A DNA stretch of 64,000 bases from an uncultured bacterium (lineage in GTDB: Bacteria > Patescibacteriota > Minisyncoccia > UBA6257 > 2-01-FULL-56-20): the NCBI GenBank assembly GCA_963807165.1, contig CAWDZM010000001.1, positions 577,471 through 641,470 on the forward strand. Direction: 5' to 3'. This document shows positions 20,163-50,666 of the stretch, piece by piece. The translations under genes and the position numbers were made by a program. Under the pieces are notes generated by a model. That model saw nothing but the letters and a program-made list of their open reading frames with translations, was not told the DNA's origin and searched no databases. Position 1 is the stretch's first letter; each line of letters starts with the position of its first letter.

Positions 20163-21500
20163 CTAATGAGAGAACGTTAGCCCGTACAACTTTTGATCGT
20201 AACGGTTGATAAAGAACAACGCGTCATTGAAAAATTTCATATCAGAGGTGTCCATGTTCTGCGTGGCATCACTCCAGAGGGTTTGCTCCGCGCCCGTCGC
20301 GGTGTTGATCTTATAAATATCATCAGAGGTAAAGAGCGCCATCGTTTCGTAATCGTCCGGCAGGTGTGCGGCAGAGAAGCCGCTCGAACTGCGCGGAATG
20401 CCGCAGTAGAGCGCAAGATATGGAGTCGATGTTGCCGCGGCAGGCAAGATCTTCTTTGTTTTCGTGGTGGAGGTAGCGCTACTCGCAGAGCTTGTCGCGG
20501 TCGACGTTGCTATCGGCATTAACTCCGTATTAAAGGCGCACTTTGATGGCAATGTGAGGAAACTAAGCGGTTCGGTTGGCAGATTTCCATACATCGCCTG
20601 GAGTTGGAGAGTATTCCCCGCCTGGCCCGATGGATTATTAAAGAACGTAAGCCCGTATGGGATGGCCGGATTGGCACTCCATATTCCCTCCGCGCCCGGA
20701 ACCTCATAGATGAGCGGGGTGAGCGCGCTTGTTAGAGAGTTGAACGCCCATACTGAGCCTGCGTTCTGCGTAGTTGGCTTGTCGGATAAAATGAACTCGT
20801 TCTGCGTGGGCCACGCAAGTGTGAGATCGTTCGCGTTAAGGGAAATCAACACTCTGGGCGCGGCTTTTAAATTCACGGCGTTCATGATCGCGAGCGTGAG
20901 CTTACCACTGCTCGTTACCGCAAGATATGCGATCAAATAATTACTGATTGGCGACCATTGCGGAGAGAGCATCCCTTGGGGGAGCGCTACCCACGCGTTC
21001 GTGGCGACATCATAGAGCGCCGCCTGGGGGTTTGTGGGGTCGCCGTAACTCACTATAATTTTCTTCCCGTCATGAGAGAAGCTGGCCGAAATGATTTCGT
21101 CAATCGTTGATGAGTTGACCGTGACGGATTGGCCGTTCGCGATAGTAACAATCGAGCCGTTTGGTTCGATGGCGATGATATTATTTTGCGGATCAATAAA
21201 ATAATCCAAGATCGGATCTTGTGAGAGTACGCCGAAGTTTGATACTGTCGCTTGGCCGCCGCTCACCGTCGTGGCGGTGCTACTCCCTGTCGTCGTCGGC
21301 AGGCCGAGCGTGCCGACGCTGTTCGCCGTGCCGGAATTATTCCCCTGCGTGCCCGTTGTCGGGAGCGAGCCACCGGTGGTGGTCGTGCCAGTCACGCTGG
21401 GCGCCGTGCCTGCAGAATTGTTCTTTATAAGGAAAAGAATAAGTATCGCGAGCGCCGCTGCGACGATGATGCCGATGATGATGTAAATATAGCGTTTCAT
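20163..21500 (-). CDS. membrane-anchored protein with Thr/Gly-rich linker and a beta-propeller-like repeat domain; last gene of the T4SS-like locus
   Basis: N-terminal TM IIIGIIVAAALAILILFLI, then a TGTTTTGGSLPTTGT linker, then a beta-rich domain. Confidence 0.5.
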   Translation of the reverse strand: MKRYIYIIIGIIVAAALAILILFLIKNNSAGTAPSVTGTTTTGGSLPTTGTQGNNSGTANSVGTLGLPTTTGSSTATTVSGGQATVSNFGVLSQDPILDYFIDPQNNIIAIEPNGSIVTIANGQSVTVNSSTIDEIISASFSHDGKKIIVSYGDPTNPQAALYDVATNAWVALPQGMLSPQWSPISNYLIAYLAVTSSGKLTLAIMNAVNLKAAPRVLISLNANDLTLAWPTQNEFILSDKPTTQNAGSVWAFNSLTSALTPLIYEVPGAEGIWSANPAIPYGLTFFNNPSGQAGNTLQLQAMYGNLPTEPLSFLTLPSKCAFNTELMPIATSTATSSASSATSTTKTKKILPAAATSTPYLALYCGIPRSSSGFSAAHLPDDYETMALFTSDDIYKINTATGAEQTLWSDATQNMDTSDMKFFNDALFFINRYDQKLYGLTFSH

Positions 21501-21518
21501 AATAATATTTTTATATTA

Positions 21519-21995
21519 TCAACAACCAACATAAATTACTTGGAGTCCACTAGCGGGAATGCAAGGATTGGGATTTGTTAACGGGCCGTTCGGCGAAGCT
21601 GGCGCAGGGGTTGGAGTGGTAGCGGGAGCTGATGCCTGAGTGTTCACTGGCGGCAGGGTCGTTGGTAAACTAAGTGTCGTTAGCTGTGGATTTATTACAT
21701 GTAAAACGAAATACGCTCCTACTAATAATAATAACCCAAGCAGTGCCGCCTCAATCCATTCTTTTGCATCACTTTGTCCAGAAGGGTTTCCTGCTGATGC
21801 CATATACCTAACGCCGCCGTATACCACAACACCGAATGCGAGTATGCCGCCGATCATCAACGCAAACTGGTAGAAGCCGCCGACGAATGCGCCGGGGTTA
21901 GAGCCAGAATTCGGAGCCATACCTGGGACGCTTGTGCTGATAGTAATCGCCGTAGCGTGCGCGACCGAAATGAATGGAAATGAGGCGCCTATCAT
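21519..21995 (-). CDS. VirB2/TrbC-like pilin candidate (two hydrophobic helices in a hairpin, Pro/Thr-rich C-terminal tail)
   Basis: AFVGGFYQFALMIGGILAFGVVVYGGV and EAALLGLLLLVGAYFVL helices separated by a short loop; the topology is typical of T4SS pilins. Overlaps the upstream gene's stop. Confidence 0.4.
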   Translation of the reverse strand: MIGASFPFISVAHATAITISTSVPGMAPNSGSNPGAFVGGFYQFALMIGGILAFGVVVYGGVRYMASAGNPSGQSDAKEWIEAALLGLLLLVGAYFVLHVINPQLTTLSLPTTLPPVNTQASAPATTPTPAPASPNGPLTNPNPCIPASGLQVIYVGC

Positions 21996-22729
21996 AATTG
22001 GCTCTCGTAGGTTAGATTTGCCGACGCGGTGGCGATAGTCGAATCGTTGGGATTTTCAAGGCTGAGCGACACACTCACACTGGTTCCTGACTGTGTCCCT
22101 TGCGGGAGCGTTATTTGTGCCGCCTCGGGATTCTCAGCGTTGGATCCGTTCTGGCCATTTACCGACCATGTATAGGAAAGTTTAGTGAGATCAGAAACAT
22201 TGAAAAAATATGGGATTGCTTGCACCGAAACCGGATTTTGTGAGAACTGTCCGTTCGGATACGGCGCGTAGATTACCGCCTCTGGCAGCACCATCGGGAT
22301 GGTTATCGCATGGACAAGGTACGCACCGTTATAGTTTGGAATCGTCACGCGTAGGTTGATGGTGTTCGGCGCGTCGCCAATAGGAGGAAAGGTCACGTGC
22401 TGTACACCAACACCACCACCGACAAGGTTATCATTAACATACCAATAAATGGTCTGTTGGCTGAGGTCGAGCACTTTACCCTGCGGGGAGATCAATTCAA
22501 GCGATGCGGTGATGTTCGAGCCGTAGGTAGGGAGCGCTTTGCCCTGATAAAAAGAAGGGATATAGCTCCCAGTCGTTTTCCAGGTGATGAGAAACCACGG
22601 AGAAGAGGCGGTCGCTGCCGCCGTTTGCGCGCGGGCCGTCGGTGCAATGGAAATAAAAACGCCGGACGCAAGCACGATAGCAAAAAAACCCACAAGCGCC
22701 GATTTTTTAACGATAGTTCGCGATGACAT
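21992..22729 (-). CDS. secreted/anchored hypothetical protein
   Basis: N-terminal signal/anchor ALVGFFAIVLASGVFISIAPTARA; beta-rich. Confidence 0.45.
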   Translation of the reverse strand: MSSRTIVKKSALVGFFAIVLASGVFISIAPTARAQTAAATASSPWFLITWKTTGSYIPSFYQGKALPTYGSNITASLELISPQGKVLDLSQQTIYWYVNDNLVGGGVGVQHVTFPPIGDAPNTINLRVTIPNYNGAYLVHAITIPMVLPEAVIYAPYPNGQFSQNPVSVQAIPYFFNVSDLTKLSYTWSVNGQNGSNAENPEAAQITLPQGTQSGTSVSVSLSLENPNDSTIATASANLTYESQL

Positions 22730-22773
22730 TACTTTCCTTTAGTATACCAAATATGCCGCGATAGCGGATGGAG

Positions 22774-23622
22774 CTATGCCGCCTTGTCGGATTCTTCTTC
22801 CTCGTCACCATTTTCACTTTCATCATTCCCTTCGTCTTTATTTTGGTTATTAGTGCGGTCGGCGATGTCGAAGACTTTTTGAACTTGCCTTTTAGCTTTA
22901 TCAGCTTTCTTTTCTTCGGGCTCCTCGTTCTGTTCCGATCCTTGTTCTTCTGGGGATTCACGGAACTCATCTTCTTGTGGCAGGGTAATATCCTCCTCAA
23001 GATTTTCCATTGGATTCCTTTCTTCGCGGGTAAGGTCGAGGCCTTCTTGGGTTTCACCTGCTTCTGCAGCGGTTTCCGCTCCCTGTGTTCCAGCTTCTAT
23101 CCCTTGAGCTCCCGCTTCGGCGGTGGCCCCTCCGGCTTCGGCTCCTGCTGCGCCAACCGCTCCGGTGCTTTCAGCCACCGCCCCGGCCGCCTCCACCCCT
23201 TCTGCGGCAGTCGTCGCAACTTCAGCGCCCTCGGCGACGACCGCGCCGGCTTCGAGCGCTTCGCCGGCGCCCGCGGTGCCAATTGCGACAGCTTGGATAG
23301 CGACCTGTTCAACAACAAACTCACCAATTTTACTCGAGGTGACAACCATCAGAATTAATCCCAGCATAAGTGGTAGTGGTAATATCCAAAATAAAAGAAG
23401 GATAGATTTAGGAAGCCACCCGCCGGTTTTTCCCCAAAAGTAAAAAAGAATAATAAGACCAAAGCCCCAATGTGCCATAAACACAAACATAGCTATCGCC
23501 AATCCTATGCCCGGGATCGCCAACCCGATCAATCCTAATAGGGTGAGGTCGGCAAAAAAAGCCATGATAAAAAAAACCAAAGTCCCTGGCTCGAACAAAT
23601 CTATCTTACCTTCTTCATTCAT
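22774..23622 (-). CDS. polytopic membrane protein with a long Ala/Gly/Glu-rich acidic C-terminal tail; VirB6/TrbL-like role possible
   Basis: 3-4 TM helices in the first ~110 aa, then a low-complexity AGEA... tail and a DEEEESD end. Immediately downstream of the VirB4 gene. Confidence 0.4.
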   Translation of the reverse strand: MNEEGKIDLFEPGTLVFFIMAFFADLTLLGLIGLAIPGIGLAIAMFVFMAHWGFGLIILFYFWGKTGGWLPKSILLLFWILPLPLMLGLILMVVTSSKIGEFVVEQVAIQAVAIGTAGAGEALEAGAVVAEGAEVATTAAEGVEAAGAVAESTGAVGAAGAEAGGATAEAGAQGIEAGTQGAETAAEAGETQEGLDLTREERNPMENLEEDITLPQEDEFRESPEEQGSEQNEEPEEKKADKAKRQVQKVFDIADRTNNQNKDEGNDESENGDEEEESDKAA

Positions 23623-23634
23623 ACACGAAGAAAA

Positions 23635-25371
23635 TTATAATGCGTTTTTTTCCTCCAGTAGCTGCTCGGGGTTCGTGGTGATGATCTGATCCTCGTAATA
23701 TGACGGCACGATCTGGATGGCGACATGGCGCTTGCCGGCGAAGAAAATGCCGGTGCCGACCTCCGCGCCGAGGAGGAAGTTCTTTTCCGCTTCGGTAAGG
23801 TCGAACGCCTTTGCAACGATGTCGATCGTTGCCGGGGCTTGCTTGAGCAATAATTGCAAAGAAGAATTAGTGACGATCGGACGTCCGTAGGGCGATCGCA
23901 AGAAATCTTCCACATCCTGTGTGATTGTGGTGACTCCTAAATAATATTTACGTGCGCGCTTGACGAGGCCGAAGAGGAACGTTGCACTGTCTTCGTTCTT
24001 CATCATGATCCATGCCTCGTCAATAAACAGCAATCGCTTTGCGAGCTTGGCGCGGATAAGGTTCCAAATAAAGTTGAGCACGACGAACATGCCGAGCGGG
24101 CGGAGCTCTTCTTCAAGGTCGCGGATAGAGAAAACAATCAGCCGATTATTAACGTCGATGTTGGTGGGCTGGTTTAAGAATCCCGCGAAGCTGCCCTTGG
24201 TATATTTATAGAGTTTTTCCGCGAGATCACGGCCACCCTCCAGATTACGCAGGATCGTTTCTAAGTCACCGAGCAGGGGCGGCTCCTTGCCAACGAAGTC
24301 CGTGTCGGCGACGATCTCGCGCGAGGCGTACGTCTCTGTGATCGCGCGATCAAGTAAAGAATCTTCCTCCGGCGAAAGTTTTCCAAGCATCAACTTGAGC
24401 AAGCTTGCGAGGTTTACGATATGCGAGCGCAGAACATCCGACGGCGTTTCGCCTTCCGGCACCGGCGGAATATCGAACGGATTGATGTGCTCGTGCGATG
24501 ATAGCGAGATGTTGAACATGCTTCCGGCAAACGTATCTGCCAGGCGGCCATATTCGTTTTCAGGGTCGATGACGATTACCATCTCAATGCCCGCCATGAG
24601 TGAGCGCAGGATCTCAAGCTTCGTGGTGTACGATTTGCCGGAGCCGGATTTTGCAAAGACCACTTCGTTCGCATTTTCCAAAGAGAAGCGATCAAAGATG
24701 ACGAGGTTGCTGTTGTGCAGGTTGATGCCGTACATGATCCCCTGATTGGAGGAAAGATCCTCGGAGACGAACGGGAAGAATGACGAGATCGGGCTCGTGT
24801 TCATCGGCGAATAAATTTGTAGCTTATCGTTGTTGATCGGCAAAATAGAAGACAACCCTTCGAGCTGTTCAAAGAGCGCGGGTTTAAGGTAGATCAGCTT
24901 CGCCTCCATCATGGTGACGAGCTTGCTCTCCAGCCGCGCAAGTTCTTCCATCGTGTCGGAATAGATCGTGATGTAGACGCCCGTATTGAAAAGTTTTTCC
25001 TCCGACTGCTGGAGTGAGTCGCGTAGATTTTCGACATCGTTCACGGCAGTTTCCAAAACAGGATTTCGCACCAGCCCTTTCTCCTGCTCCTCGTTCATTT
25101 GCGATTCGAGCTGGCCAGCTTTCTTGCGCAGGTTCTTGAGCGCGCTGCCAGTATCGATCGGGTTGATAAAAATAGAAATGTCGAAAAGGTTCGGCAGGTT
25201 GATGAGCGGCTCGAACCAGCCGGTCGAAAGATAGCGCGGATAGGAAAAAACAAAAAATGTCTTTGCCAGCTTGTCGCCAATTTTCAAATAATTTGGAAAA
25301 ACCTCCGCTCCGGCGGGAGCGATCATCTTCCGTACGTTATCGAAATTATTTTCTTGTGGTTGGTCGGGCAT
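23635..25371 (-). CDS. virB4: VirB4/TraC/PrgJ-family T4SS ATPase, C-terminal 578 aa
   Basis: IAPAGAEVFPNYLKIGDKLAKTFFVFSYPR entry motif, Walker A VVFAKSGSGKSYTT, Walker B RLLFIDEAW. Confidence 0.8.
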   Translation of the reverse strand: MPDQPQENNFDNVRKMIAPAGAEVFPNYLKIGDKLAKTFFVFSYPRYLSTGWFEPLINLPNLFDISIFINPIDTGSALKNLRKKAGQLESQMNEEQEKGLVRNPVLETAVNDVENLRDSLQQSEEKLFNTGVYITIYSDTMEELARLESKLVTMMEAKLIYLKPALFEQLEGLSSILPINNDKLQIYSPMNTSPISSFFPFVSEDLSSNQGIMYGINLHNSNLVIFDRFSLENANEVVFAKSGSGKSYTTKLEILRSLMAGIEMVIVIDPENEYGRLADTFAGSMFNISLSSHEHINPFDIPPVPEGETPSDVLRSHIVNLASLLKLMLGKLSPEEDSLLDRAITETYASREIVADTDFVGKEPPLLGDLETILRNLEGGRDLAEKLYKYTKGSFAGFLNQPTNIDVNNRLIVFSIRDLEEELRPLGMFVVLNFIWNLIRAKLAKRLLFIDEAWIMMKNEDSATFLFGLVKRARKYYLGVTTITQDVEDFLRSPYGRPIVTNSSLQLLLKQAPATIDIVAKAFDLTEAEKNFLLGAEVGTGIFFAGKRHVAIQIVPSYYEDQIITTNPEQLLEEKNAL

Positions 25372-25391
25372 GGGATTTATAAATGGCGTCG

Positions 25392-26102
25392 CTATATCTT
25401 GCGTTCCACTGGCGCGTTTTTACGTTCGACCGTTTGCGGATTATAGAAGTTATAAAAGAGCTCGATGAGCTGTTCATCTTCCAACACGGTTGCTTCGAGG
25501 CCAATGTTTAAAAGGCCGCTCGTCACCTGCGCAGTGCGCTGGCCGAGTTGCGCAAGGTTCTCGTCGAGCATCTTTGCATATTCCGCGTCGCGCTGAGCGG
25601 TTTCCGCCGGATCCTCTTTTTTTTTTCCGCCAAAGAGCGCCATCACGCCGGAGACGCTTTTCGTCGCGCTCGGCAGCATGGACGCCGGATAGAACGAAAC
25701 GACCACCAGAAAAACTTTCTCCATAATAGCGTTCTTCTCCACAAAACCCTGAACGAATTTACTGTATTCATCGATCTGATTTTGTAGGATGGGAGATTGC
25801 TCGGTCTCTTTGCGCACCGTCAGCGTTTCTATATATTTATCAATATTCACCTTGCGCGAATGGATAAGGATTTGCAGGGGAAAGTCGATGCTGTTCAAAA
25901 ATGTCTGATATCCCTGCGTGATGATGTTCTGCTCCATCTCCGATTTTAATGAAAAATTAACGCCGCCTACCATGATGATCTGGCGGAAACTGCCGTCTTT
26001 CACAATGACGGTATTTTTCTTTATCTCTTTTATATCAACAAGATCGAGGGAGTTTCCCGCATCCTGCTTGTTTAGGACTGCCATACTCTTATTTTCGCAC
26101 AA
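25392..26102 (-). CDS. virB4: VirB4-family ATPase N-terminal domain, a separate ORF in another frame (split gene or frameshift)
   Basis: VIVKDGSFRQIIMVGGVNFSLKSEMEQ... resembles the VirB4/PrgJ N-terminal domain. It ends 20 nt before the C-terminal ORF, in a different frame. Confidence 0.6.
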   Translation of the reverse strand: MCENKSMAVLNKQDAGNSLDLVDIKEIKKNTVIVKDGSFRQIIMVGGVNFSLKSEMEQNIITQGYQTFLNSIDFPLQILIHSRKVNIDKYIETLTVRKETEQSPILQNQIDEYSKFVQGFVEKNAIMEKVFLVVVSFYPASMLPSATKSVSGVMALFGGKKKEDPAETAQRDAEYAKMLDENLAQLGQRTAQVTSGLLNIGLEATVLEDEQLIELFYNFYNPQTVERKNAPVERKI

Positions 26103-26116
26103 ATTACCCGCAAATC

Positions 26117-26638
26117 CTAGCGATAATCCACGCGCCGCGCCGCCTCGCGCTCGCCCGTCTCGCGCTGGAATATCTGATAACGCTCCGTCATCTTCTTTTC
26201 CACAAATTGACTGGCGGATTGAACCTTGCCGCCCGCCGGCGTGCCCGTCTGCAAATTTTCCCAGCTTTTATGCAGTGAATTTCCCTGCGCGATGGCCTGA
26301 ATGGGTGGTAACTCCCGCACGGCAGCAGCAGGCGCCGCGTGTTGTTGGGCCATCACCGGATGCTCCGGCTTCCATACATACATCTGCGGTTTCCAGTAGA
26401 AGTTAAGGGCGGATGTGGCGACCTTCATAAGCGGCCGGCCATTGACCTTAATAAAAGAGAGTGCGAGCGCGCCGCCGATCAGAATGAGCGCTACGATGGC
26501 GAACAGCCATGTTTGCAAAATAAAATAGCAGATGCCGCTCACGAGCGCGGCAACGCCAACATATGCGAACTGTCGGATTGAGAATGGCCCGACAATCTTG
26601 TCCTCCGTCTCAATAAATTGGGGAACTTGGTACTGCAT
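26117..26638 (-). CDS. small 2-TM membrane protein, PrgI/VirB3-like by position and topology
   Basis: QVPQFIETEDKIVGPFSIRQFAYVG followed by two TM helices; directly upstream of virB4. Confidence 0.4.
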   Translation of the reverse strand: MQYQVPQFIETEDKIVGPFSIRQFAYVGVAALVSGICYFILQTWLFAIVALILIGGALALSFIKVNGRPLMKVATSALNFYWKPQMYVWKPEHPVMAQQHAAPAAAVRELPPIQAIAQGNSLHKSWENLQTGTPAGGKVQSASQFVEKKMTERYQIFQRETGEREAARRVDYR

Positions 26639-26679
26639 ACCTTTTATTGTAAGCCGCGCGGGCCGTTAAAGGAAATCTT

Positions 26680-27560
<881 letters not shown>

Positions 27561-32973: not shown

Positions 32974-33996
32974 TTATCCCTTTTTTGAAACAAGCGCCAG
33001 AACGAGCCCGACGACCCTGTTTTTGTCTTTCGGATCGCTTTCTGCCACAAGGATGGTGAGTGCGGTAAGCGCAGGCGGTGTAAGGCGCGCGGTGTCCAAG
33101 ATCTTCGCTTGGCGCAAAAACCAGACGAACGCATATGCCCCGCTCCGCTTATTTCCATCCACGAACGGATGGTTTTTCACCATAAAATACAGTAGATGAG
33201 CTGCCTTTTCCTCCACGCTCCCATAGAGCTCCTTTCCACCAAAAGATTGCATGACATTTCCCACGATACCGGCAACATTCCCCCGCTCACGTTCGGCGCC
33301 AAAATGTTCTGTAGCCTCGCCTTTTTGTACGAGCGCCAATTTTAACTTCGCTAAGCTGCTTTTAAGTTTCTCCGCAGTGATTGCCACACGTTTTCTTATG
33401 GCACCCTTGGTGGGGAGGGCATCTTTGTCATACGCATCGAGCGAAAGCCATGTACTGGCAAAGAGATTTATGAGCTCAAGGATGCTTCCCGTATCGATCG
33501 CAGCGGCAGCGGGCAAAAGTTTCTTGACCGCGTCAACGGCTTCCAAAAATTGCCCATAATTTTTGGCTATGCGTTGCTTATTGATGGCGTATCCCTCAAC
33601 GATATATTGGTGGAGCGTTTTCGTGGCCCAGCGGCGGAATTCTATTGCACGCTGAGAATTCGCACGATAGCCAACCGCAAGGATAATATCAAGATTGTAG
33701 AATTGAACCTGATACGTTTTTCCATCTTCGGCAGTATGTGCAAAATTTGCACATACTGAAGATCCATCCAGTTCTTTGTCTTTCAAAATGTTACGGATGT
33801 GCTTTGTCGCCACAGAACGTTCAAGCTCGAATAAATCTGCTATCTGCGCTTGTGTCGCCCAGATGGTTTGTTTTTGAACATCCTTTCTTAACTCAAGAGC
33901 TCCGGATTTCCCCTGATAAATAACGACATCATTTTTTATATCTTTCTTTTTCATTCTTGTAGTCCTTATGTTAATATTTCTCAGTTGGATACTCAA
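32974..33996 (-). CDS. RhuM-family N-terminal domain fused to a Fic/Doc domain (HPFVDGNKR motif); putative toxin/AMPylator
   Basis: N-terminal ...IWATQAQIADLFELERSVATKHIRNI... (RhuM-like) and C-terminal HPFVDGNKRSGAYAFVWFL (Fic motif). Probable start MKKKDIKNDVV at ~33953. Confidence 0.7.
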   Translation of the reverse strand: MSIQLRNINIRTTRMKKKDIKNDVVIYQGKSGALELRKDVQKQTIWATQAQIADLFELERSVATKHIRNILKDKELDGSSVCANFAHTAEDGKTYQVQFYNLDIILAVGYRANSQRAIEFRRWATKTLHQYIVEGYAINKQRIAKNYGQFLEAVDAVKKLLPAAAAIDTGSILELINLFASTWLSLDAYDKDALPTKGAIRKRVAITAEKLKSSLAKLKLALVQKGEATEHFGAERERGNVAGIVGNVMQSFGGKELYGSVEEKAAHLLYFMVKNHPFVDGNKRSGAYAFVWFLRQAKILDTARLTPPALTALTILVAESDPKDKNRVVGLVLALVSKKG

Positions 33997-48273: not shown

Positions 48274-48509
48274 CCGCTTGTAGCTCAGTGGTAGAGCCGT
48301 CGTCTTAAAATGGGCAGCGAGACGAAAATAGAAATGTGGGCACGCAAGGGCGTATAGCTCAGCGGTAGAGCAGACGTCTTATACACGTCCGGTCCTAGGT
48401 TCGAATCCTAGTGCGCCCACATTTCTATTTTTGACGAGTGAACCCATTTTATGGGCGAAGCCCATAAACACAACTGGTCGTAGACTCGAATCCTACCGGG
48501 CGGACAGAA
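48274..48509 (+). other. tRNA-like gene (class I, anticodon UAA) apparently interrupted in the anticodon loop by a ~155-nt insert that contains tRNA-Ile
   Basis: 5' half CCGCTTG-TA-GCTC-AGTGGTA-GAGC-C-GTCGT-CTTAAAA (48274-48310). 3' half ACAAC-TGGTC-GTAGA-CTCGAAT-CCTAC-CGGGCGG-A (48470-48504). The acceptor halves pair (7 bp, two G-U wobbles). The 3' half is slightly degenerate (A53, C54). Confidence 0.35.
48348..48419 (+). tRNA. tRNA-Ile(TAT), AUA-decoding type, flanked by 17-bp inverted repeats
   Basis: GGGCGTA-TA-GCTC-AGCGGTA-GAGC-A-GACGT-CTTATAC-ACGTC-CGGTC-CTAGG-TTCGAAT-CCTAG-TGCGCCC-A. The inverted repeats are aaaatagaaatgtgggc (48325-48341) and gcccacatttctatttt (48415-48431). Confidence 0.8.
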
Positions 48510-48538
48510 TTGACTAAAGTTCATTTATCGGTTATAAT
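48510..48538 (+). promoter_or_regulatory. sigma70-like promoter
   Basis: TTGACT (48510-48515), 17-nt spacer, TATAAT (48533-48538); GAGGTG SD before ATG 48557. Confidence 0.55.
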
Positions 48539-48556
48539 TCTTGCAGAGGTGATCGC

Positions 48557-48763
48557 ATGGTAGTTTTTGAAGAAGTAGGCGAGAGGATTGCCGTTCGTAT
48601 GAACGGGCATCTCATCGGACACATTTCTCCCAGGCACGGATTCCATTTAAATTCCGGGCACATGGAAACCTTCATTCAGATAGGCGCGAAAGACCTGCGT
48701 CAAATCGCTGAAAAAGCAGAGGAAGTAGCGGGGATAGAACATCCCCAAGTCCAGCTCGTCTAA
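48557..48763 (+). CDS. small hypothetical protein (68 aa)
   Basis: Promoter, SD and terminator present; MVVFEEVGERIAVRMNGHLIGHISPRHGF.... Confidence 0.5.
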   Translation: MVVFEEVGERIAVRMNGHLIGHISPRHGFHLNSGHMETFIQIGAKDLRQIAEKAEEVAGIEHPQVQLV

Positions 48764-48785
48764 GACAAGCGCGGCATGTGCATCG

Positions 48786-48823
48786 CAGTCGCACGGAGAT
48801 TATCCCGTGCGACTGTTTTTTTA
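48786..48823 (+). terminator. intrinsic terminator
   Basis: cagtcgcacgg-agattatc-ccgtgcgactg followed by a T8 run. Confidence 0.7.
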
Positions 48824-48836
48824 TTCTCTTCTACGC

Positions 48837-50666
48837 TTACGCCGCGATTGGTTTGATCTTGAACGGTTTCAGCACTGCGTTGAAGTCGTCCTGTTCCAAA
48901 ACTTCTTTCTCTATTAATGTCTCGGCAATCTTTTGCAGTGCCGCTTTGTGAGTCTTTAATATTTTTTCTGCGGTGGTATAGGCGTGGAAGAGGAGGGCGT
49001 GTATCTGTTGGTCGATCTCCGATGCGGTGCGTTCGGAATAATTTTTGTCGTTAGAGATCTCTTGACCGAGGAACATCATCTGTTCGCTCTTGCCGAAGAC
49101 GATCGGGCCGAGCTCGCTCATGCCGTATTTTGTAACCATCCGTCGCGCGAGCTCGGACGCTTCTTTAAGATCGCTTGATGCGCCGGTGGAGACGTCGCCA
49201 AAGGTAAGCTTTTCCGAGACGTGGCCGCCCATCATCATAGCGAGATCCGCCATGAATTGGTTGCGCGTCTTGAGGTGCTGATCTTCATTCGGGAGCTTCA
49301 TGGTATAGCCGCCAGCGAAGCCGCGGGAGATGATGGAAACTTTCTGTACCGGATCGGCGTCTTTGACTGCGGCGGCAACGAGCGCATGACCACCCTCGTG
49401 GTACGCAGTGATCTCTTTTTCTTTTTGCGAGATGACGCGGCTCTTGCGCTCCGGACCCATGATCACTTTTTCTGCGGCCTCAAAGAGCTCTGCTTGGCCG
49501 ATCGATTTTTTATTATGCCGCGCGCTTGCGATGGCGGCCTCGTTCATCAAGTTCGCAAGGTCTGCGCCGGAAAATCCCGGCGTGCGTCCCGCGACGCGGC
49601 GGAGGTCAACGTCCTTCTCGAGCGTTTTGCCTTCGGAGTGGATTTTAAGGATCGCTTCGCGGTCATTCATGTCGGGGAGGTCGAGGATGACGCGGCGATC
49701 GAAGCGGCCGGGCCGGAGCAACGCTGGATCAAGAACATCCGGGCGATTGGTTGCTGCAAGGACGATCACCCGTGTGTCGCGGTCAAAGCCGTCCATCTCC
49801 ACGAGAATCTGGTTGAGTGTTTGTTCGCGCTCATCACTGCCACCGCCCATGCCGGCGCCACGCTGGCGGCCGACGGCATCGATCTCATCTATAAAGAGGA
49901 TTGCTGGCGAGGCTCGCTTGGCCTGCATGAAGGCGTCGCGCGTGCGCGAGGCACCGACGCCAACGAACATTTCCACGAACTCGGACGCTGATATATAGAA
50001 GAAGGGGACGTTGCTCTCGCCGGCGACCGCGCGCGCGACGAGCGTTTTGCCCGTGCCCGGAGGTCCCATCAAAAGAATGCCGCGCGGGATGCGCGCGCCA
50101 AGATCCAAAAACTTTTGCGGATTTTTTAAAAAGTCTACAACCTCTATCAATTCCTCTTTTGCTTCTTTTAATCCGGCGACATCTTTAAAGAGCACTCGGT
50201 CTTTTATGTTCGAGAGTTTAAGATTCGATCGCCCGAAATTAAATGCCTGATTGACGCCGGTCTTTGCCTGGCGGAGCATGAACCAGAAAAATGCGCCGAT
50301 GATGATGAGTGTGAGAAGTGGATCGATCAGGATGCCGAGCCAATATTCCCACCCGGACTGATTCACGATCTCGAGGTCCACGCTTTGCATCGCTTGCTGA
50401 TTCACGCCGAGATTTTTTAGCGTGTCGGTAACACTCACCCCATCCTCTTTTTGTGCGATGGCGGCACTGCCGTCCGTCATCGTCACGTCGAGTTCGTCGC
50501 CATTCACTTTTATTTGCTTGATAGTGCCGGCGTTGATATCGCCCACAAGCTGATCAAGGTTGAGCGAGGTCGGCGTGGTTTGTGGTCCTACAAAATATGA
50601 AAAAATAAGCGAGATAACAATAAGCGTGATGACCGCCCAGATAATATTTTTAGTAAGGTTGGACAT
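48837..50666 (-). CDS. ftsH: ATP-dependent zinc metalloprotease FtsH
   Basis: Walker [12 protein letters not shown] region, HEGGHAL zinc motif, N-terminal TM, 609 aa. Confidence 0.95.

What the first reader, a model, noticed from the sequence alone, without database searches (positions are those of the whole stretch)
48274..48509. tRNA-like gene split in its anticodon loop by a ~155-nt insert carrying a complete tRNA-Ile(UAU)
The split gene:
- The 5' half (48274-48310) has a textbook acceptor strand, D-arm and anticodon 5' stem plus loop CTTAAAA.
- The 3' half (48470-48504) supplies ACAAC (pairing 4/5 with GTCGT), a short variable loop, a T-arm, and CGGGCGG, which pairs 7/7 with CCGCTTG.
- Joined, they give a 73-nt class-I tRNA with anticodon UAA.
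- A UAA anticodon would read Leu codons, yet the short variable arm is not Leu-like, so this is odd.
- The 3' half carries A53 and C54, so it is slightly degenerate.

The insert:
- Between the halves lies a fully canonical tRNA-Ile(UAU) (48348-48419).
- It is flanked by perfect 17-bp inverted repeats (48325-48341 / 48415-48431), the right one overlapping its acceptor 3' strand.
- The insert ends also carry short AATGGGC / GCCCATT inverted motifs.

This is too small and lacks the features of a group I intron. It is at the anticodon loop, not a BHB context. It could be a novel small mobile or intron-like element with tRNA cargo, a tRNA gene disrupted by insertion, or a recombination product.
Basis: seen in the sequence. 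Interest (0 to 1): 0.8.

Follow-up and report, generated by a model that had tools for sequence, protein, structure and literature searches.

The report
Working tRNA nested inside dead tRNA
A functional isoleucine tRNA gene, wrapped in hairpin-forming arms, sits inside the anticodon loop of an older, decaying copy of the same gene, and related CPR bacteria show such cassettes repeatedly invading and replacing this gene, which I could not find described anywhere.

Summary
Positions 48274-48306 and 48466-48504 are the two halves of one tRNA gene. They are split after U34 by a 159-nt insert (48307-48465) that holds an intact tRNA-Ile(UAU) at 48348-48419.

The outer gene is not a Leu tRNA. It is a decayed tRNA-Ile(UAU) allele. 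The intact allele is the only tRNA-Ile gene at this site in close relatives (L106-L118). The window copy differs from it at 5 sites, including U36>A, G53>A and U54>C.

The same cassette architecture interrupts tRNA-Ile(UAU) at exactly 34/35 in three separate Paceibacterota clades:
- helix Pa, a tandem-GA internal loop, a 17-21-bp helix Pc clasping the cargo tRNA, and hairpin Pb;
- the helices are kept by compensatory changes.

Two arm types each travel with their own cargo tRNA type, and each occurs in both kinds of outer gene. L099 shows the reverse nesting laid over the window's own cassette. tRNA-Val(UAC) has an analogous cassette, with two stacked 5' halves in L080.

The outer copy is defective in 7 of 8 nests; the inner never is. 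No group I, BHB, integrase, MITE or IS200/IS605 features fit.

Best reading: a small, protein-free, site-specific tRNA-replacement cassette. How it inserts is unknown.

The parts
48274..48306 (+). Outer tRNA-Ile(UAU) pseudogene, 5' half (acceptor strand, D arm, anticodon-stem 5' strand, C32 U33 U34).
   Evidence: 33 of 34 nt identical to the 5' half of the intact allele CCGCCTG... in L099 and L106-L118. The single change is C>T at 48278.
48307..48314 (+). Cassette helix Pa, 5' strand (AAAATGGG). This is the first base of the insert.
   Evidence: Pairs with 48443-48450 (pair I2). Positions 5 and 6 covary across the window, L015, L022 and L027.
48315..48324 (+). Cassette internal loop, 5' side (CAGCGAGACG), holding the conserved AGCGAG.
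   Evidence: Conserved in the window, L015 and L022. AGCGAG can pair with CGAGYG on the 3' side as A.G, G-Y, C-G, G.A, A.G, G-C. This is read from the sequences; the standard pairs are counted.
48325..48341 (+). Helix Pc, left arm (AAAATAGAAATGTGGGC).
   Evidence: Perfect 17-bp inverted repeat with 48415-48431 (pair I1), 19 bp if C-G and G-U extensions are counted. Equivalent 13-21-bp helices with unrelated sequences occur in L015, L022 and L027.
48348..48419 (+). Inner, intact tRNA-Ile(UAU): the cargo and the working gene.
   Evidence: ARAGORN. Rfam tRNA 70.5 bits. One D-loop difference from the single-copy type I allele of L101 and L102.
48415..48431 (+). Helix Pc, right arm (GCCCACATTTCTATTTT). 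It overlaps the last 5 nt of the inner tRNA.
   Evidence: pair I1. An identical arm plus GACGAG survives in L104, and a decayed copy survives in L099.
48432..48442 (+). Cassette internal loop, 3' side (TGACGAGTGAA), holding the conserved CGAGYGA.
   Evidence: Conserved in all five cassettes. It is part of the pattern and profile that find only these loci.
48443..48450 (+). Helix Pa, 3' strand (CCCATTTT).
48451..48465 (+). Hairpin Pb (ATGGGC-GAA-GCCCAT). This is the last base of the insert. If the insert ends were joined, Pb and Pa would form one uninterrupted 14-bp helix.
   Evidence: pair I3. GGGC/GCCC is replaced by CCGC/GCGG in L022 and by GCCC/GGGT in L099.
48466..48504 (+). Outer tRNA-Ile(UAU) pseudogene, 3' half (A35 to A73).
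   Evidence: Differs from the intact allele at 48467 T>A (U36), 48472 G>A (anticodon stem), 48484 G>A (G53) and 48485 T>C (U54).

Best explanation
What it is. The locus is a 'tRNA-in-tRNA' nest. A 159-nt non-coding cassette landed precisely between U34 and A35 of the resident tRNA-Ile(UAU) gene (allele 'type II', CCGCCTG...). The cassette consists of arm x, a complete tRNA-Ile(UAU) of allele 'type I', and arm y. The insertion destroyed the resident gene and supplied its replacement in the same step.

State of this copy. The inner tRNA is the working gene. The outer halves are a relic that is accumulating lesions.

The arms (shown as structure; role inferred). The two arms pair with each other (Pa, a tandem-G.A internal loop, and the 17-19-bp Pc) into a rod of about 35 bp that clasps the cargo tRNA. 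Pb closes the 3' end. In the transcript, which probably starts upstream with the 199-aa ORF, this rod most likely serves two purposes:
- it keeps the inner halves folded together, away from the homologous outer halves;
- it acts as a leader-trailer processing stem, like the stems that RNase III cuts around rRNA, before RNase P and 3' trimming release the tRNA.

The family. The cassette belongs to a family found in Paceibacterota that always sits at 34/35 of tRNA-Ile(UAU). An analogous family sits in tRNA-Val(UAC). Because the cargo recreates the target site, cassettes can invade one another. This gives stacked nests and rapid turnover of tRNA-Ile alleles among near-identical genomes.

Shown versus inferred.
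- Shown: anatomy, homology, site specificity, covariation, decay of outer copies, stacked and reciprocal nests.
- Inferred: that insertion is an active site-specific process. My leading guess is double-strand-break repair ('homing') after cleavage of the anticodon-loop DNA by an endonuclease acting in trans, or uptake of nested alleles by transformation.
- Inferred: the RNA-processing role of the arms.
For: Identity of the outer gene:
- The intact allele CCGCCTG...GTAGGTTCGAATCCTACCGGGCGGA is the only tRNA-Ile at this syntenic site in L106-L118, and it is the inner gene in L099.
- The window copy differs from it at 5 sites, four of them at critical positions.

Recurrence:
- The same nest occurs in L022/L083 (outer copy intact; ARAGORN -i calls tRNA-Ile with a 160-nt intron at 34), L015, L027/L082, L028, L004, L104 and L099.
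- These fall in three separate clades of the FtsH tree.

Structure under constraint:
- 92% of cells are paired, 5 pairs change on both sides, and 0 of 500 shuffles reach the observed values.
- Pc is 13-21 bp with unrelated sequences in different cassettes.
- Fold z-score is -4.88.

The cassette behaves as a unit:
- Alpha arms (window, L015, L022) always carry type I cargo.
- Beta arms (L027, L099) always carry type II-like cargo.
- Each arm type occurs in both type I and type II outer genes, with base-precise junctions and no chimeric exons.

Serial invasion:
- L099 has a beta cassette with type II cargo abutting a type I 3' half that is still followed by the window's own Pc right arm and y loop (about 60 of 67 nt identical).
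- L080 has two successive tRNA-Val 5' halves before the intact gene.

The outer copy is dispensable:
- It is defective in 7 of 8 nests and the inner copy never is (one-sided p = 0.008).

Allele turnover:
- Where tRNA-Gly(UCC) is 100% identical to the window's, tRNA-Ile identity is 93% (L001), 82% (L030) and 68% (L003).
- Contigs that share an identical 197-aa neighbouring protein carry type I, type II or a decayed nest.

Specificity:
- Orphan tRNA halves in 118 loci are only Ile(UAU) and Val(UAC) (Fisher p = 0.0013).
Against: - No enzyme or mechanism for insertion was found. About 50 window ORFs scanned against Pfam include no transposase, integrase, HNH endonuclease or reverse transcriptase, and the rest of the genome is unseen.
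- The cassette is rare. A scan of JGI metagenomes with the 3'-arm pattern recovered only two lineages already known, and nothing turned up in IMG/VR, phage or plasmid collections.
- A mix of vertical descent, gene conversion between inner and outer copies (L015's outer 3' half is identical to its inner 3' half) and easy loss by recombination between the direct repeats (L028) could mimic part of the pattern.
- In the window the arms are flawless although the outer gene has 5 lesions. In L004 the arms have decayed although the cargo is intact. So the proposed role of the arms in maturation is not settled.
- L022's outer gene is fully intact, with compensated differences from its inner gene. Splicing cannot be excluded there.
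- The covariation test rests on only 4 distinct sequences.
Confidence: 0.7

Rival explanations
1. It is a true intron. The cassette is excised from the outer pre-tRNA, either by an unknown protein endonuclease and ligase (for example RtcB) or by RNA catalysis. One transcript then yields two tRNA-Ile(UAU) molecules, and the excised, possibly circular, intron RNA is the mobile form.
For: - The junction is base-precise and restores CTTATAC in L015, L022, L027 and L099.
- L022's outer gene is a flawless cloverleaf with compensated differences from its inner gene.
- If the insert ends are joined, Pb and Pa form one continuous perfect helix (window 14 bp, L022 13 bp), as expected for a circularised intron. 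This is read from the sequences.
- In the window the 5' exon end CGUCUU can pair with GAGACG in the insert, with U.G at the cut site (read).
- Group I introns at nearly all anticodon-loop positions, and HNH homing endonucleases in tRNA introns, exist in this phylum (PMC13011429).
Against: - No ribozyme or intron family matches, even at E <= 10.
- Only 87 nt are not tRNA, there is no terminal G, and there is no BHB motif.
- The window's outer gene would give a tRNA with anticodon UAA, A53, C54 and a C.A mismatch.
- Outer copies are truncated or damaged in 7 of 8 nests, and there is no nest with a damaged inner copy.
- The Val cassettes cannot restore TTTACAC by simple excision.
Confidence: 0.12
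2. There is no mobility. A single ancient rearrangement placed a tRNA copy inside another. The nest was then inherited vertically, kept partly uniform by gene conversion, and lost many times by recombination between the repeated halves.
For: - Loss is easy and was observed: L028 has a deletion between the inner and outer 3' halves, and L104 and L004 carry partial deletions.
- L015's outer 3' half is identical to its inner 3' half, which points to gene conversion.
- The window, L004, L104 and the older layer of L099 clearly share one event.
Against: - Neutral outer halves could not stay intact across hosts whose FtsH is only 76-79% identical.
- Alpha and beta arms each occur in both exon contexts without chimeric exons.
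- The beta arm core CCGAGCGATTCGATTT is identical between L099, a close relative of the window, and the distant L027 clade.
- Stacked nests in L099 and L080 require repeated insertion at the same site.
- An independent cassette family exists in tRNA-Val.
Confidence: 0.12
3. It is the scar of a conventional integrase-driven element (phage, plasmid or island) that integrated into the tRNA gene and later lost nearly all of its DNA.
For: - Integrases commonly cross over in the anticodon loop (established knowledge).
- An archaeal case exists of a tRNA 5' fragment left 1.8 kb upstream of a new tRNA copy by a recombinase-bearing element (PMC3293823).
- The tRNA-FtsH spacer is variable, and in the window it holds a unique 68-aa ORF.
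Against: - Integration gives host 5' half plus element 3' part, then the element, then the displaced 3' half. It does not give a complete gene between both displaced halves.
- Five independent cassettes end at exactly the same base, with Pb abutting ATAC and no cargo remnant.
- There is no shared crossover segment at the two junctions beyond 1-2 nt.
- No integrase lies nearby.
Confidence: 0.04
4. It is a chance resemblance or an assembly artefact from mixing two co-existing tRNA-Ile alleles.
For: Both alleles do co-occur in related populations, and most of the sequences are metagenome assemblies.
Against: - The arms are unique sequence, absent from single-allele loci.
- Identical nests were assembled independently: L022 (NCBI MAG) matches L083 (JGI), and L027 matches L082.
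- The pattern expectation in the window is 0.00, and the fold z-score is -4.88.
Confidence: 0.02

Closest known systems
Group I introns in bacterial tRNA anticodon loops (tRNA-Leu(UAA) at 34/35; Patescibacteria tRNA-Asn/Asp at 35/36; Nakagawa et al. 2026, PMC13011429)
   Same: - Insertion in the anticodon loop of a tRNA gene, here at the same 34/35 phosphodiester after U33-U34.
- Same phylum.
- Precise junctions.
- A possible P1-like pairing with U.G in the window.
   Different: - Only 87 nt are not tRNA, against 184-894 nt for known tRNA group I introns.
- No Rfam Intron_gpI match.
- No terminal G.
- It carries a whole tRNA.
- The host gene is usually dead, so splicing is not required.
Integrative elements and genomic islands that target tRNA genes and bring a replacement segment (including the Caldiarchaeum tRNA-Thr case, Sugahara et al. 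2012, PMC3293823)
   Same: - The target is a tRNA gene, often its anticodon loop.
- The element makes good the damage it causes.
- Displaced tRNA fragments are left behind.
- Alleles differ within a population.
   Different: - No recombinase and no cargo genes; the whole element is about 160 nt.
- A complete tRNA is carried, rather than a 3' segment.
- Both displaced halves flank the insert, so the arrangement is nested rather than attL/attR.
Leader-trailer processing stems around rRNA, and around some tRNA precursors, cut by RNase III
   Same: A long, nearly perfect helix formed by the sequences on either side of a stable RNA gene, maintained by covariation.
   Different: - Here the stem is part of an insertion cassette inside another gene.
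- Cleavage has not been tested.
- The stem overlaps or directly extends the acceptor stem.
Homing of intron or free-standing endonuclease loci
   Same: - Site-specific spread into a conserved RNA gene.
- Replacement of the recipient's allele.
   Different: - No endonuclease gene is in or near the cassette.
- The cargo recreates the target site, so an inserted allele would not be immune. That would explain the stacking.
MITEs and other miniature non-autonomous transposons; IS200/IS605-derived hairpin elements (PATEs)
   Same: - Small, non-coding and strongly self-complementary.
- Inserted at a defined short sequence.
   Different: - No terminal inverted repeats at the ends.
- No clear target duplication.
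- Single copy, found only at its own isoacceptor gene.
- A hairpin at the right end only.

Membership tests
tRNA (inner gene, 48348-48419) | Covariance-model score above threshold, full cloverleaf, conserved G53-U54-U55-C56. | tested here: met
   Rfam RF00005 scores 70.5 bits against a threshold of 29. ARAGORN calls tRNA-Ile(tat).
tRNA (outer gene, joined halves) | Cloverleaf when the halves are joined. | tested here: met
   ARAGORN calls a 73-nt tRNA at its default threshold, but not at 105%. The acceptor stem is 5 Watson-Crick plus 2 G-U pairs.
tRNA (outer gene, joined halves) | Invariant T-loop G53 and U54, an intact anticodon stem, and an anticodon that matches the identity of the body. 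| tested here: not met
   A53, C54, a C.A mismatch in the anticodon stem, and U36>A, all relative to the intact allele. The outer gene is therefore a pseudogene.
Group I intron | Match to the group I covariance model and a P3-P9 catalytic core. | tested here: not met
   No Intron_gpI hit at the gathering score or at E <= 10. Only 87 nt are not tRNA, against a minimum of 184 nt among 333 bacterial tRNA introns.
Group I intron | Terminal guanosine at the 3' end of the intron. | tested here: not met
   The inserts end in ...CCCAT...GCGGAT...CCCTT or ...GGTAT.
Group I intron | P1 helix with a U.G pair at the 5' splice site. | tested here: inconclusive
   The window can form CGUCUU/GAGACG with U34.G (read). 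In L015, L022 and L027 only 3-5 mostly wobble pairs are possible.
Archaeal/eukaryal protein-spliced tRNA intron | Bulge-helix-bulge motif at the exon-intron borders. | tested here: not met
   The borders lie at a three-way junction (anticodon stem, Pa, Pb), with 3 and 4 unpaired nt. There is no 3-4-3 bulge-helix-bulge.
Archaeal/eukaryal protein-spliced tRNA intron | A splicing endonuclease (EndA) and a ligase encoded in the genome. | not testable with these tools
   Only 64 kb of the genome is available. Neither gene is among the ORFs scanned.
Integrase-type tRNA-targeting integrative element | attL/attR arrangement: a tRNA 3' segment as a direct repeat at both ends, with a recombinase gene inside. 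| tested here: not met
   The arrangement is nested, with both halves displaced. The insert is 159 nt with no ORF. No integrase is found in the window ORFs scanned.
MITE (DDE-transposon derivative) | Terminal inverted repeats at the element ends. | tested here: not met
   The 5' end AAAAYNGG pairs with a subterminal segment 15 nt inside the 3' end. The 3' terminus itself is the Pb hairpin.
MITE (DDE-transposon derivative) | Target-site duplication. | tested here: inconclusive
   The Ile junctions can be read as a duplicated TA (CT-TA-...-TA-TAC) or as no duplication. The Val junctions show no duplication.
MITE (DDE-transposon derivative) | Many dispersed copies per genome. | tested here: not met
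   nhmmer with arm profiles finds one copy per locus, only at tRNA-Ile, and none elsewhere in the 64-kb window. Whole genomes were not available.
IS200/IS605-derived hairpin element | Similar subterminal hairpins at both ends, and a Y1 transposase in the genome. | tested here: not met
   There is a small hairpin at the right end only. No Y1_Tnp or OrfB hit appears among the window ORFs scanned. The genome-wide question is not testable.

The most novel reading that the evidence does not exclude
A protein-free 'tRNA gene drive'. A cassette of about 160 nt, made only of a tRNA gene and two self-pairing arms, inserts site-specifically into the anticodon loop of its own isoacceptor gene. It kills the resident copy, replaces its function, and recreates its own target, so that cassettes overwrite one another in series. 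The arms would be the recognition or catalytic part. They might act as a folded single strand of DNA, or as an excised and possibly circular RNA whose joined ends form one continuous helix. This would be a new class of mobile element and a new route of tRNA allele turnover in CPR bacteria.
Probability: 0.35. Interest if true: 0.9.

Novelty: categorically new. Interest (0 to 1): 0.8.

Why it matters
- If the cassettes are mobile, they are a kind of element defined by an RNA gene rather than a protein gene. It repairs the damage it causes by carrying a full spare copy of its target.
- It would explain why a single-copy, presumably essential tRNA gene differs by up to 32% between genomes whose neighbouring tRNA-Gly is identical.
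- It gives annotators a reason to look for orphan tRNA halves around tRNA-Ile(UAU) and tRNA-Val(UAC) in Patescibacteria.
- It bears on old ideas about why tRNA genes become split, interrupted or replaced.
- It yields directly testable predictions: junction reads, empty versus filled sites, and a partner endonuclease.
- For this particular window the practical message is simple. The inner tRNA is the gene, the outer halves are a pseudogene, and there is no tRNA-Leu here.

Tried and rejected
- Exact-protein look-ups of the three flanking window proteins found nothing on record.
It returned only L082 (the L027 lineage) and L083 (identical to L022), plus two chance loci, L081 and L084. This pattern cannot see cassettes with diverged arms.
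- IMG/VR scans gave nothing for the Ile pattern, the alpha circle-junction 23-mer, the Val 5' junction and the beta 16-mer, or gave only chance hits without tRNAs.
- Phage and plasmid BLAST searches returned only generic tRNA matches.
- Rfam at E <= 10 on the region, and at gathering score on 12 related loci, found only tRNAs.
- I looked by eye for hammerhead, hairpin, twister and HDV-like cores at the junctions and found none. This was not a formal search beyond Rfam.
- I considered a kink-turn in the internal loop and rejected it. The tandem G.A pairs are flanked by Watson-Crick pairs on both sides, with no 3-nt bulge.
- I considered a tyrosine-recombinase core and rejected it. The two junctions share no 6-8-nt overlap segment.
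- I considered a serine-recombinase or TA-duplication reading. It fits the Ile junctions but not the Val junctions.
- ARAGORN in intron mode over all loci found no nest with a damaged inner copy and an intact outer copy.
- The 68-aa ORF next to the nest is unique to the window and so is not a shared partner gene.
- Literature searches found no description of nested tRNA genes in bacteria.
Full report
**1. The observation**

The window comes from a Paceibacterota (Parcubacteria/Minisyncoccia, CPR) genome. Its FtsH (48837-50666, minus strand) is 93% identical to that of a Minisyncoccia MAG.

- The inner gene at 48348-48419/20 is an ordinary tRNA-Ile(UAU): ARAGORN and Rfam at 70.5 bits.
  - a 5' half at 48276-48307, 84% identical to the inner 5' half;
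  - a 3' half at 48465-48506, 71% identical to the inner 3' half;
  - the inverted repeat with its perfect 17-bp core at 48325-48341 / 48415-48431;
  - the pairing TAAAATGGG (48306-48314) / CCCATTTTA (48443-48451);
  - a terminal hairpin at 48448-48468.
- The 233-nt stretch folds with z = -4.88 against shuffles.
- Joined, the halves are called a 73-nt tRNA by ARAGORN at the default threshold, but not at 105%.
- The acceptor stem has 5 Watson-Crick and 2 G-U pairs.

**2. What the outer gene is**

A genome scan with FtsH returned 80 related loci. The order tRNA-Gly(UCC) / 199-aa ORF / tRNA-Ile(UAU) / FtsH is conserved.

Look-ups of close homologues of the 199-aa ORF showed the following:
- In L106-L118, the only tRNA-Ile gene at this site is CCGCCTGTAGCTCAGTGGTAGAGCCGTCGTCTTATACACGACTGGTCGTAGGTTCGAATCCTACCGGGCGGA.
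- The same allele is the inner gene in L099.
- The window's outer halves are this allele, including its unusual C1-G72 pair.
- They differ from it at five positions: 48278 C>T, 48467 T>A (U36, which creates the apparent UAA anticodon), 48472 G>A (anticodon stem), 48484 G>A (G53) and 48485 T>C (U54).

So the outer gene is a pseudogenised tRNA-Ile(UAU) ('type II'), not a Leu tRNA. The inner gene ('type I') differs by one D-loop base from the single-copy allele of L101 and L102.

**3. The insert is a member of a family**

The same architecture interrupts tRNA-Ile(UAU) in these loci:

| Locus | State of the outer gene |
|---|---|
| L022 (= L083) | Flawless; ARAGORN -i calls tRNA-Ile with a 160-nt intron at 34 |
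| L015 | 5' half truncated; 3' half identical to the inner 3' half |
| L027 (~ L082) | One acceptor mismatch, a different base in each of the two |
| L028 | Only the 5' half and arm x remain |
| L004 | Only a decayed 5' half and arm x remain |
| L104 | Internal deletion; the end of the outer 3' half survives |
| L099 | See section 5 |

- In every case the junction is CTT|insert|ATAC, between U34 and A35.
- The inserts are 153-165 nt.
- From 5' to 3' the insert consists of:
  - helix Pa, 5' strand (AAAAYNGG);
  - a loop with AGCGAG;
  - a 13-21-bp helix Pc that overlaps or directly extends the acceptor end of the cargo tRNA;
  - the cargo tRNA;
  - Pc, 3' arm;
  - a loop with CGAGYGA;
  - Pa, 3' strand;
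  - hairpin Pb.
- The two loops can pair as A.G, G-Y, C-G, G.A, A.G, G-C. That is a tandem sheared-GA motif inside a helix, not a kink-turn. This is read from the sequences.
- On a four-sequence alignment, 92% of cells pair, five pairs change on both sides, and none of 500 shuffles reaches the observed values.
- Pc has unrelated sequences in different cassettes.
- Wobble pairs fall mostly on the tRNA-sense strand: about six G-T against one A-C, counted by eye. This mildly favours an RNA or sense-strand role.
- If the two insert ends are joined, Pb and Pa form one uninterrupted helix of 14 bp in the window and 13 bp in L022.

**4. Evidence that the cassette moves as a unit**

- The nests lie in three separate clades of the FtsH tree, among many lineages with a plain gene.
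- Two arm types exist.
  - Alpha (window, L015, L022) always carries type I cargo.
  - Beta (L027/L082/L028, L099) carries type II-like cargo.
- Each arm type occurs in both type I and type II outer genes, with no chimeric exons.
- Types I and II share only 6 and 7 nt on either side of the junction. Ordinary homologous recombination therefore cannot explain a change of exon context.
- The beta core CCGAGCGATTCGATTT is identical between L099 (199-aa ORF 88% identical to the window's) and the distant L027 clade (FtsH 76% identical).

**5. Serial and reciprocal invasion**

- In L099 the intact type II gene is followed by a canonical beta 3' arm that abuts ATAC.
- That ATAC begins a type I 3' half.
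- This half is in turn followed by a decayed copy of the window's own Pc right arm and y loop (about 60 of 67 nt identical). The window's Pc left arm lies upstream.
- So the history in this lineage is: a type II gene was invaded by a type I cassette (the state seen in the window), and that cassette was invaded by a type II cassette (L099).

An analogous but unrelated cassette interrupts tRNA-Val(UAC). Its layout is exon ...TTTA | TTCA-SCCCGTYAGA... cargo ...TCTRACGGGS-CAAG | exon.
- It occurs in L040, L048, L060 and L077, probably also in L049.
- L080 has two successive 5' halves ahead of the intact gene.

Across all 118 loci, orphan halves belong only to Ile(UAU) and Val(UAC). The comparison is 12 of 102 against 0 of 81 (Fisher p = 0.0013). 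The sample is biased, because all loci were chosen around FtsH. Both anticodon loops read N-U-U-A-Y-A-C.

**6. Allele turnover**

- With tRNA-Gly(UCC) 100% identical to the window's, tRNA-Ile identity is 93% (L001), 82% (L030) and 68% (L003).
- Contigs encoding the identical 197-aa protein P0008 carry type I (L102), type II (L103) or a decayed nest (L104).

**7. Is the outer gene spliced?**

Probably not, at least here.
- The window copy would yield a tRNA with four lesions at critical positions.
- Outer copies are damaged in 7 of 8 nests, and the inner copy never is (one-sided p = 0.008).
- Intron-mode ARAGORN found no nest with a dead inner and a live outer copy.
- The Val junctions cannot be restored by simple excision.
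- No ribozyme or intron family matches.

L022 remains compatible with splicing.

**8. What the arms do (inference)**

- They form a rod of about 35 bp that clasps the cargo tRNA.
- I propose that the rod keeps the inner halves together, away from the homologous outer halves.
- I also propose that it serves as a leader-trailer processing stem.
- For: the arms of the older cassette have decayed in L099, where their cargo is dead.
- Against: in L004 the arms have decayed although the cargo is intact.

**9. How it inserts (unknown)**

- No transposase, integrase, HNH endonuclease or reverse transcriptase is among about 50 window ORFs scanned.
- There is only one arm copy per locus.
- Nothing related is in the phage, plasmid or IMG/VR collections.
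- Homing after a break made in trans at the anticodon-loop DNA is my leading guess. HNH endonucleases in tRNA introns exist in this phylum.
- That guess would also explain stacking, because the cargo recreates the target site.
- A single-stranded DNA or RNA route cannot be excluded.

**10. Comparison with known systems and novelty**

- The cassette fails the tests for group I introns, BHB introns, integrase-type integration, MITEs and IS200/IS605 derivatives (see the membership table).
- In outcome it resembles integrative elements that repair the tRNA gene they target. The closest published case found is an archaeal 1.8-kb recombinase-bearing element (PMC3293823).
- The only paper found on tRNA introns in this phylum (PMC13011429) reports group I introns of 184 nt or more and does not mention nested tRNAs.
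- I found no description of such cassettes.

**Verdict**

- The window copy is a working tRNA-Ile inside a dead one.
- The family it belongs to appears to be new.

Noticed in passing
L040 6989-7116; L048 6434-6700; L060 10304-10513; L077 8190-8330; L080 7345-7670; L049 8750-8920: tRNA-Val(UAC) genes carry an analogous nested cassette with different arms (TTCA-SCCCGTYAGA... / ...TCTRACGGGS-CAAG). L080 has two stacked 5' halves. The outer 3' halves hold further large insertions.
   Followed up: partly
L035 3369-3500; L036 7384-7570; L058 8621-8830; L082 9665-9830: A different phenomenon. The last 16-30 nt of the tRNA (from the T loop onward) is repeated 100-180 nt downstream of tRNA-Leu(UAG), Arg(UCU), Val(UAC) and Gly(UCC). 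In L035 and L036 the intervening sequences share a motif GGGGTCGGGGAAAC...GTTTCCCCGTG. This may be another small element aimed at the T loop.
   Followed up: no
window 16919-18270 (minus strand): dnaA is split into two overlapping ORFs: 17626-18270 (N-terminal domain plus the first part of the ATPase) and 16919-17632 (the rest of the ATPase plus the C-terminal domain). This indicates a frameshift, a sequencing error or a pseudogene at the replication-origin gene cluster (dnaA-dnaN, yidC, jag).
   Followed up: no
window 48510-48816: Directly after the nest there is a near-consensus promoter (TTGACT-17-TATAAT), a 68-aa ORF (48557-48763) with no Pfam hit, and a strong terminator (48785-48816). 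The ORF is absent from all 118 related loci, so the tRNA-FtsH spacer is a variable spot.
   Followed up: partly
L001, L030, L085, L099, L101-L118, between the 199-aa ORF and tRNA-Ile (for example L102 1390-1500): A conserved GC-rich block of about 100 nt (…TTCGGGGACGGGTCGCG…GCTCCGCGA…CCCTCAAAG…) flanked by a 16-nt inverted repeat. It has no Rfam match and is absent from the window. It may be an undescribed small RNA or another inserted element.
   Followed up: partly
L040 about 6930-6960; L060 about 10470-10490; also L066 and L068: The palindrome CCTGCCTGCCGGCAGGCAGG recurs inside decayed tRNA halves and near tRNA genes in several Paceibacterota. It looks like a small dispersed repeat.
   Followed up: no
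L074 8409-8800 (minus strand): tRNA-Cys(GCA) is clasped by a helix of about 16-22 bp. It is preceded by what looks like another tRNA 5' half ending in CTG (position 34) and followed by a 30-nt tandem repeat. This may be a third isoacceptor with a nest.
   Followed up: no
window 20163-27560 (minus strand): A cluster resembling a type IV secretion or conjugation system (TraG/VirB4-like ATPase, PrgI, T4SS pilin) lies next to the origin region. A Fic/RhuM-domain ORF lies at 32974-33996.
   Followed up: no
L003 6900-7000: A genome whose tRNA-Gly is identical to the window's carries a wholly different tRNA-Ile(UAU) (68% identity). It is flanked by an 8-9-bp inverted repeat (TTTTTTAC / GTAAAAAA). This may be the last trace of another replacement cassette.
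   Followed up: partly
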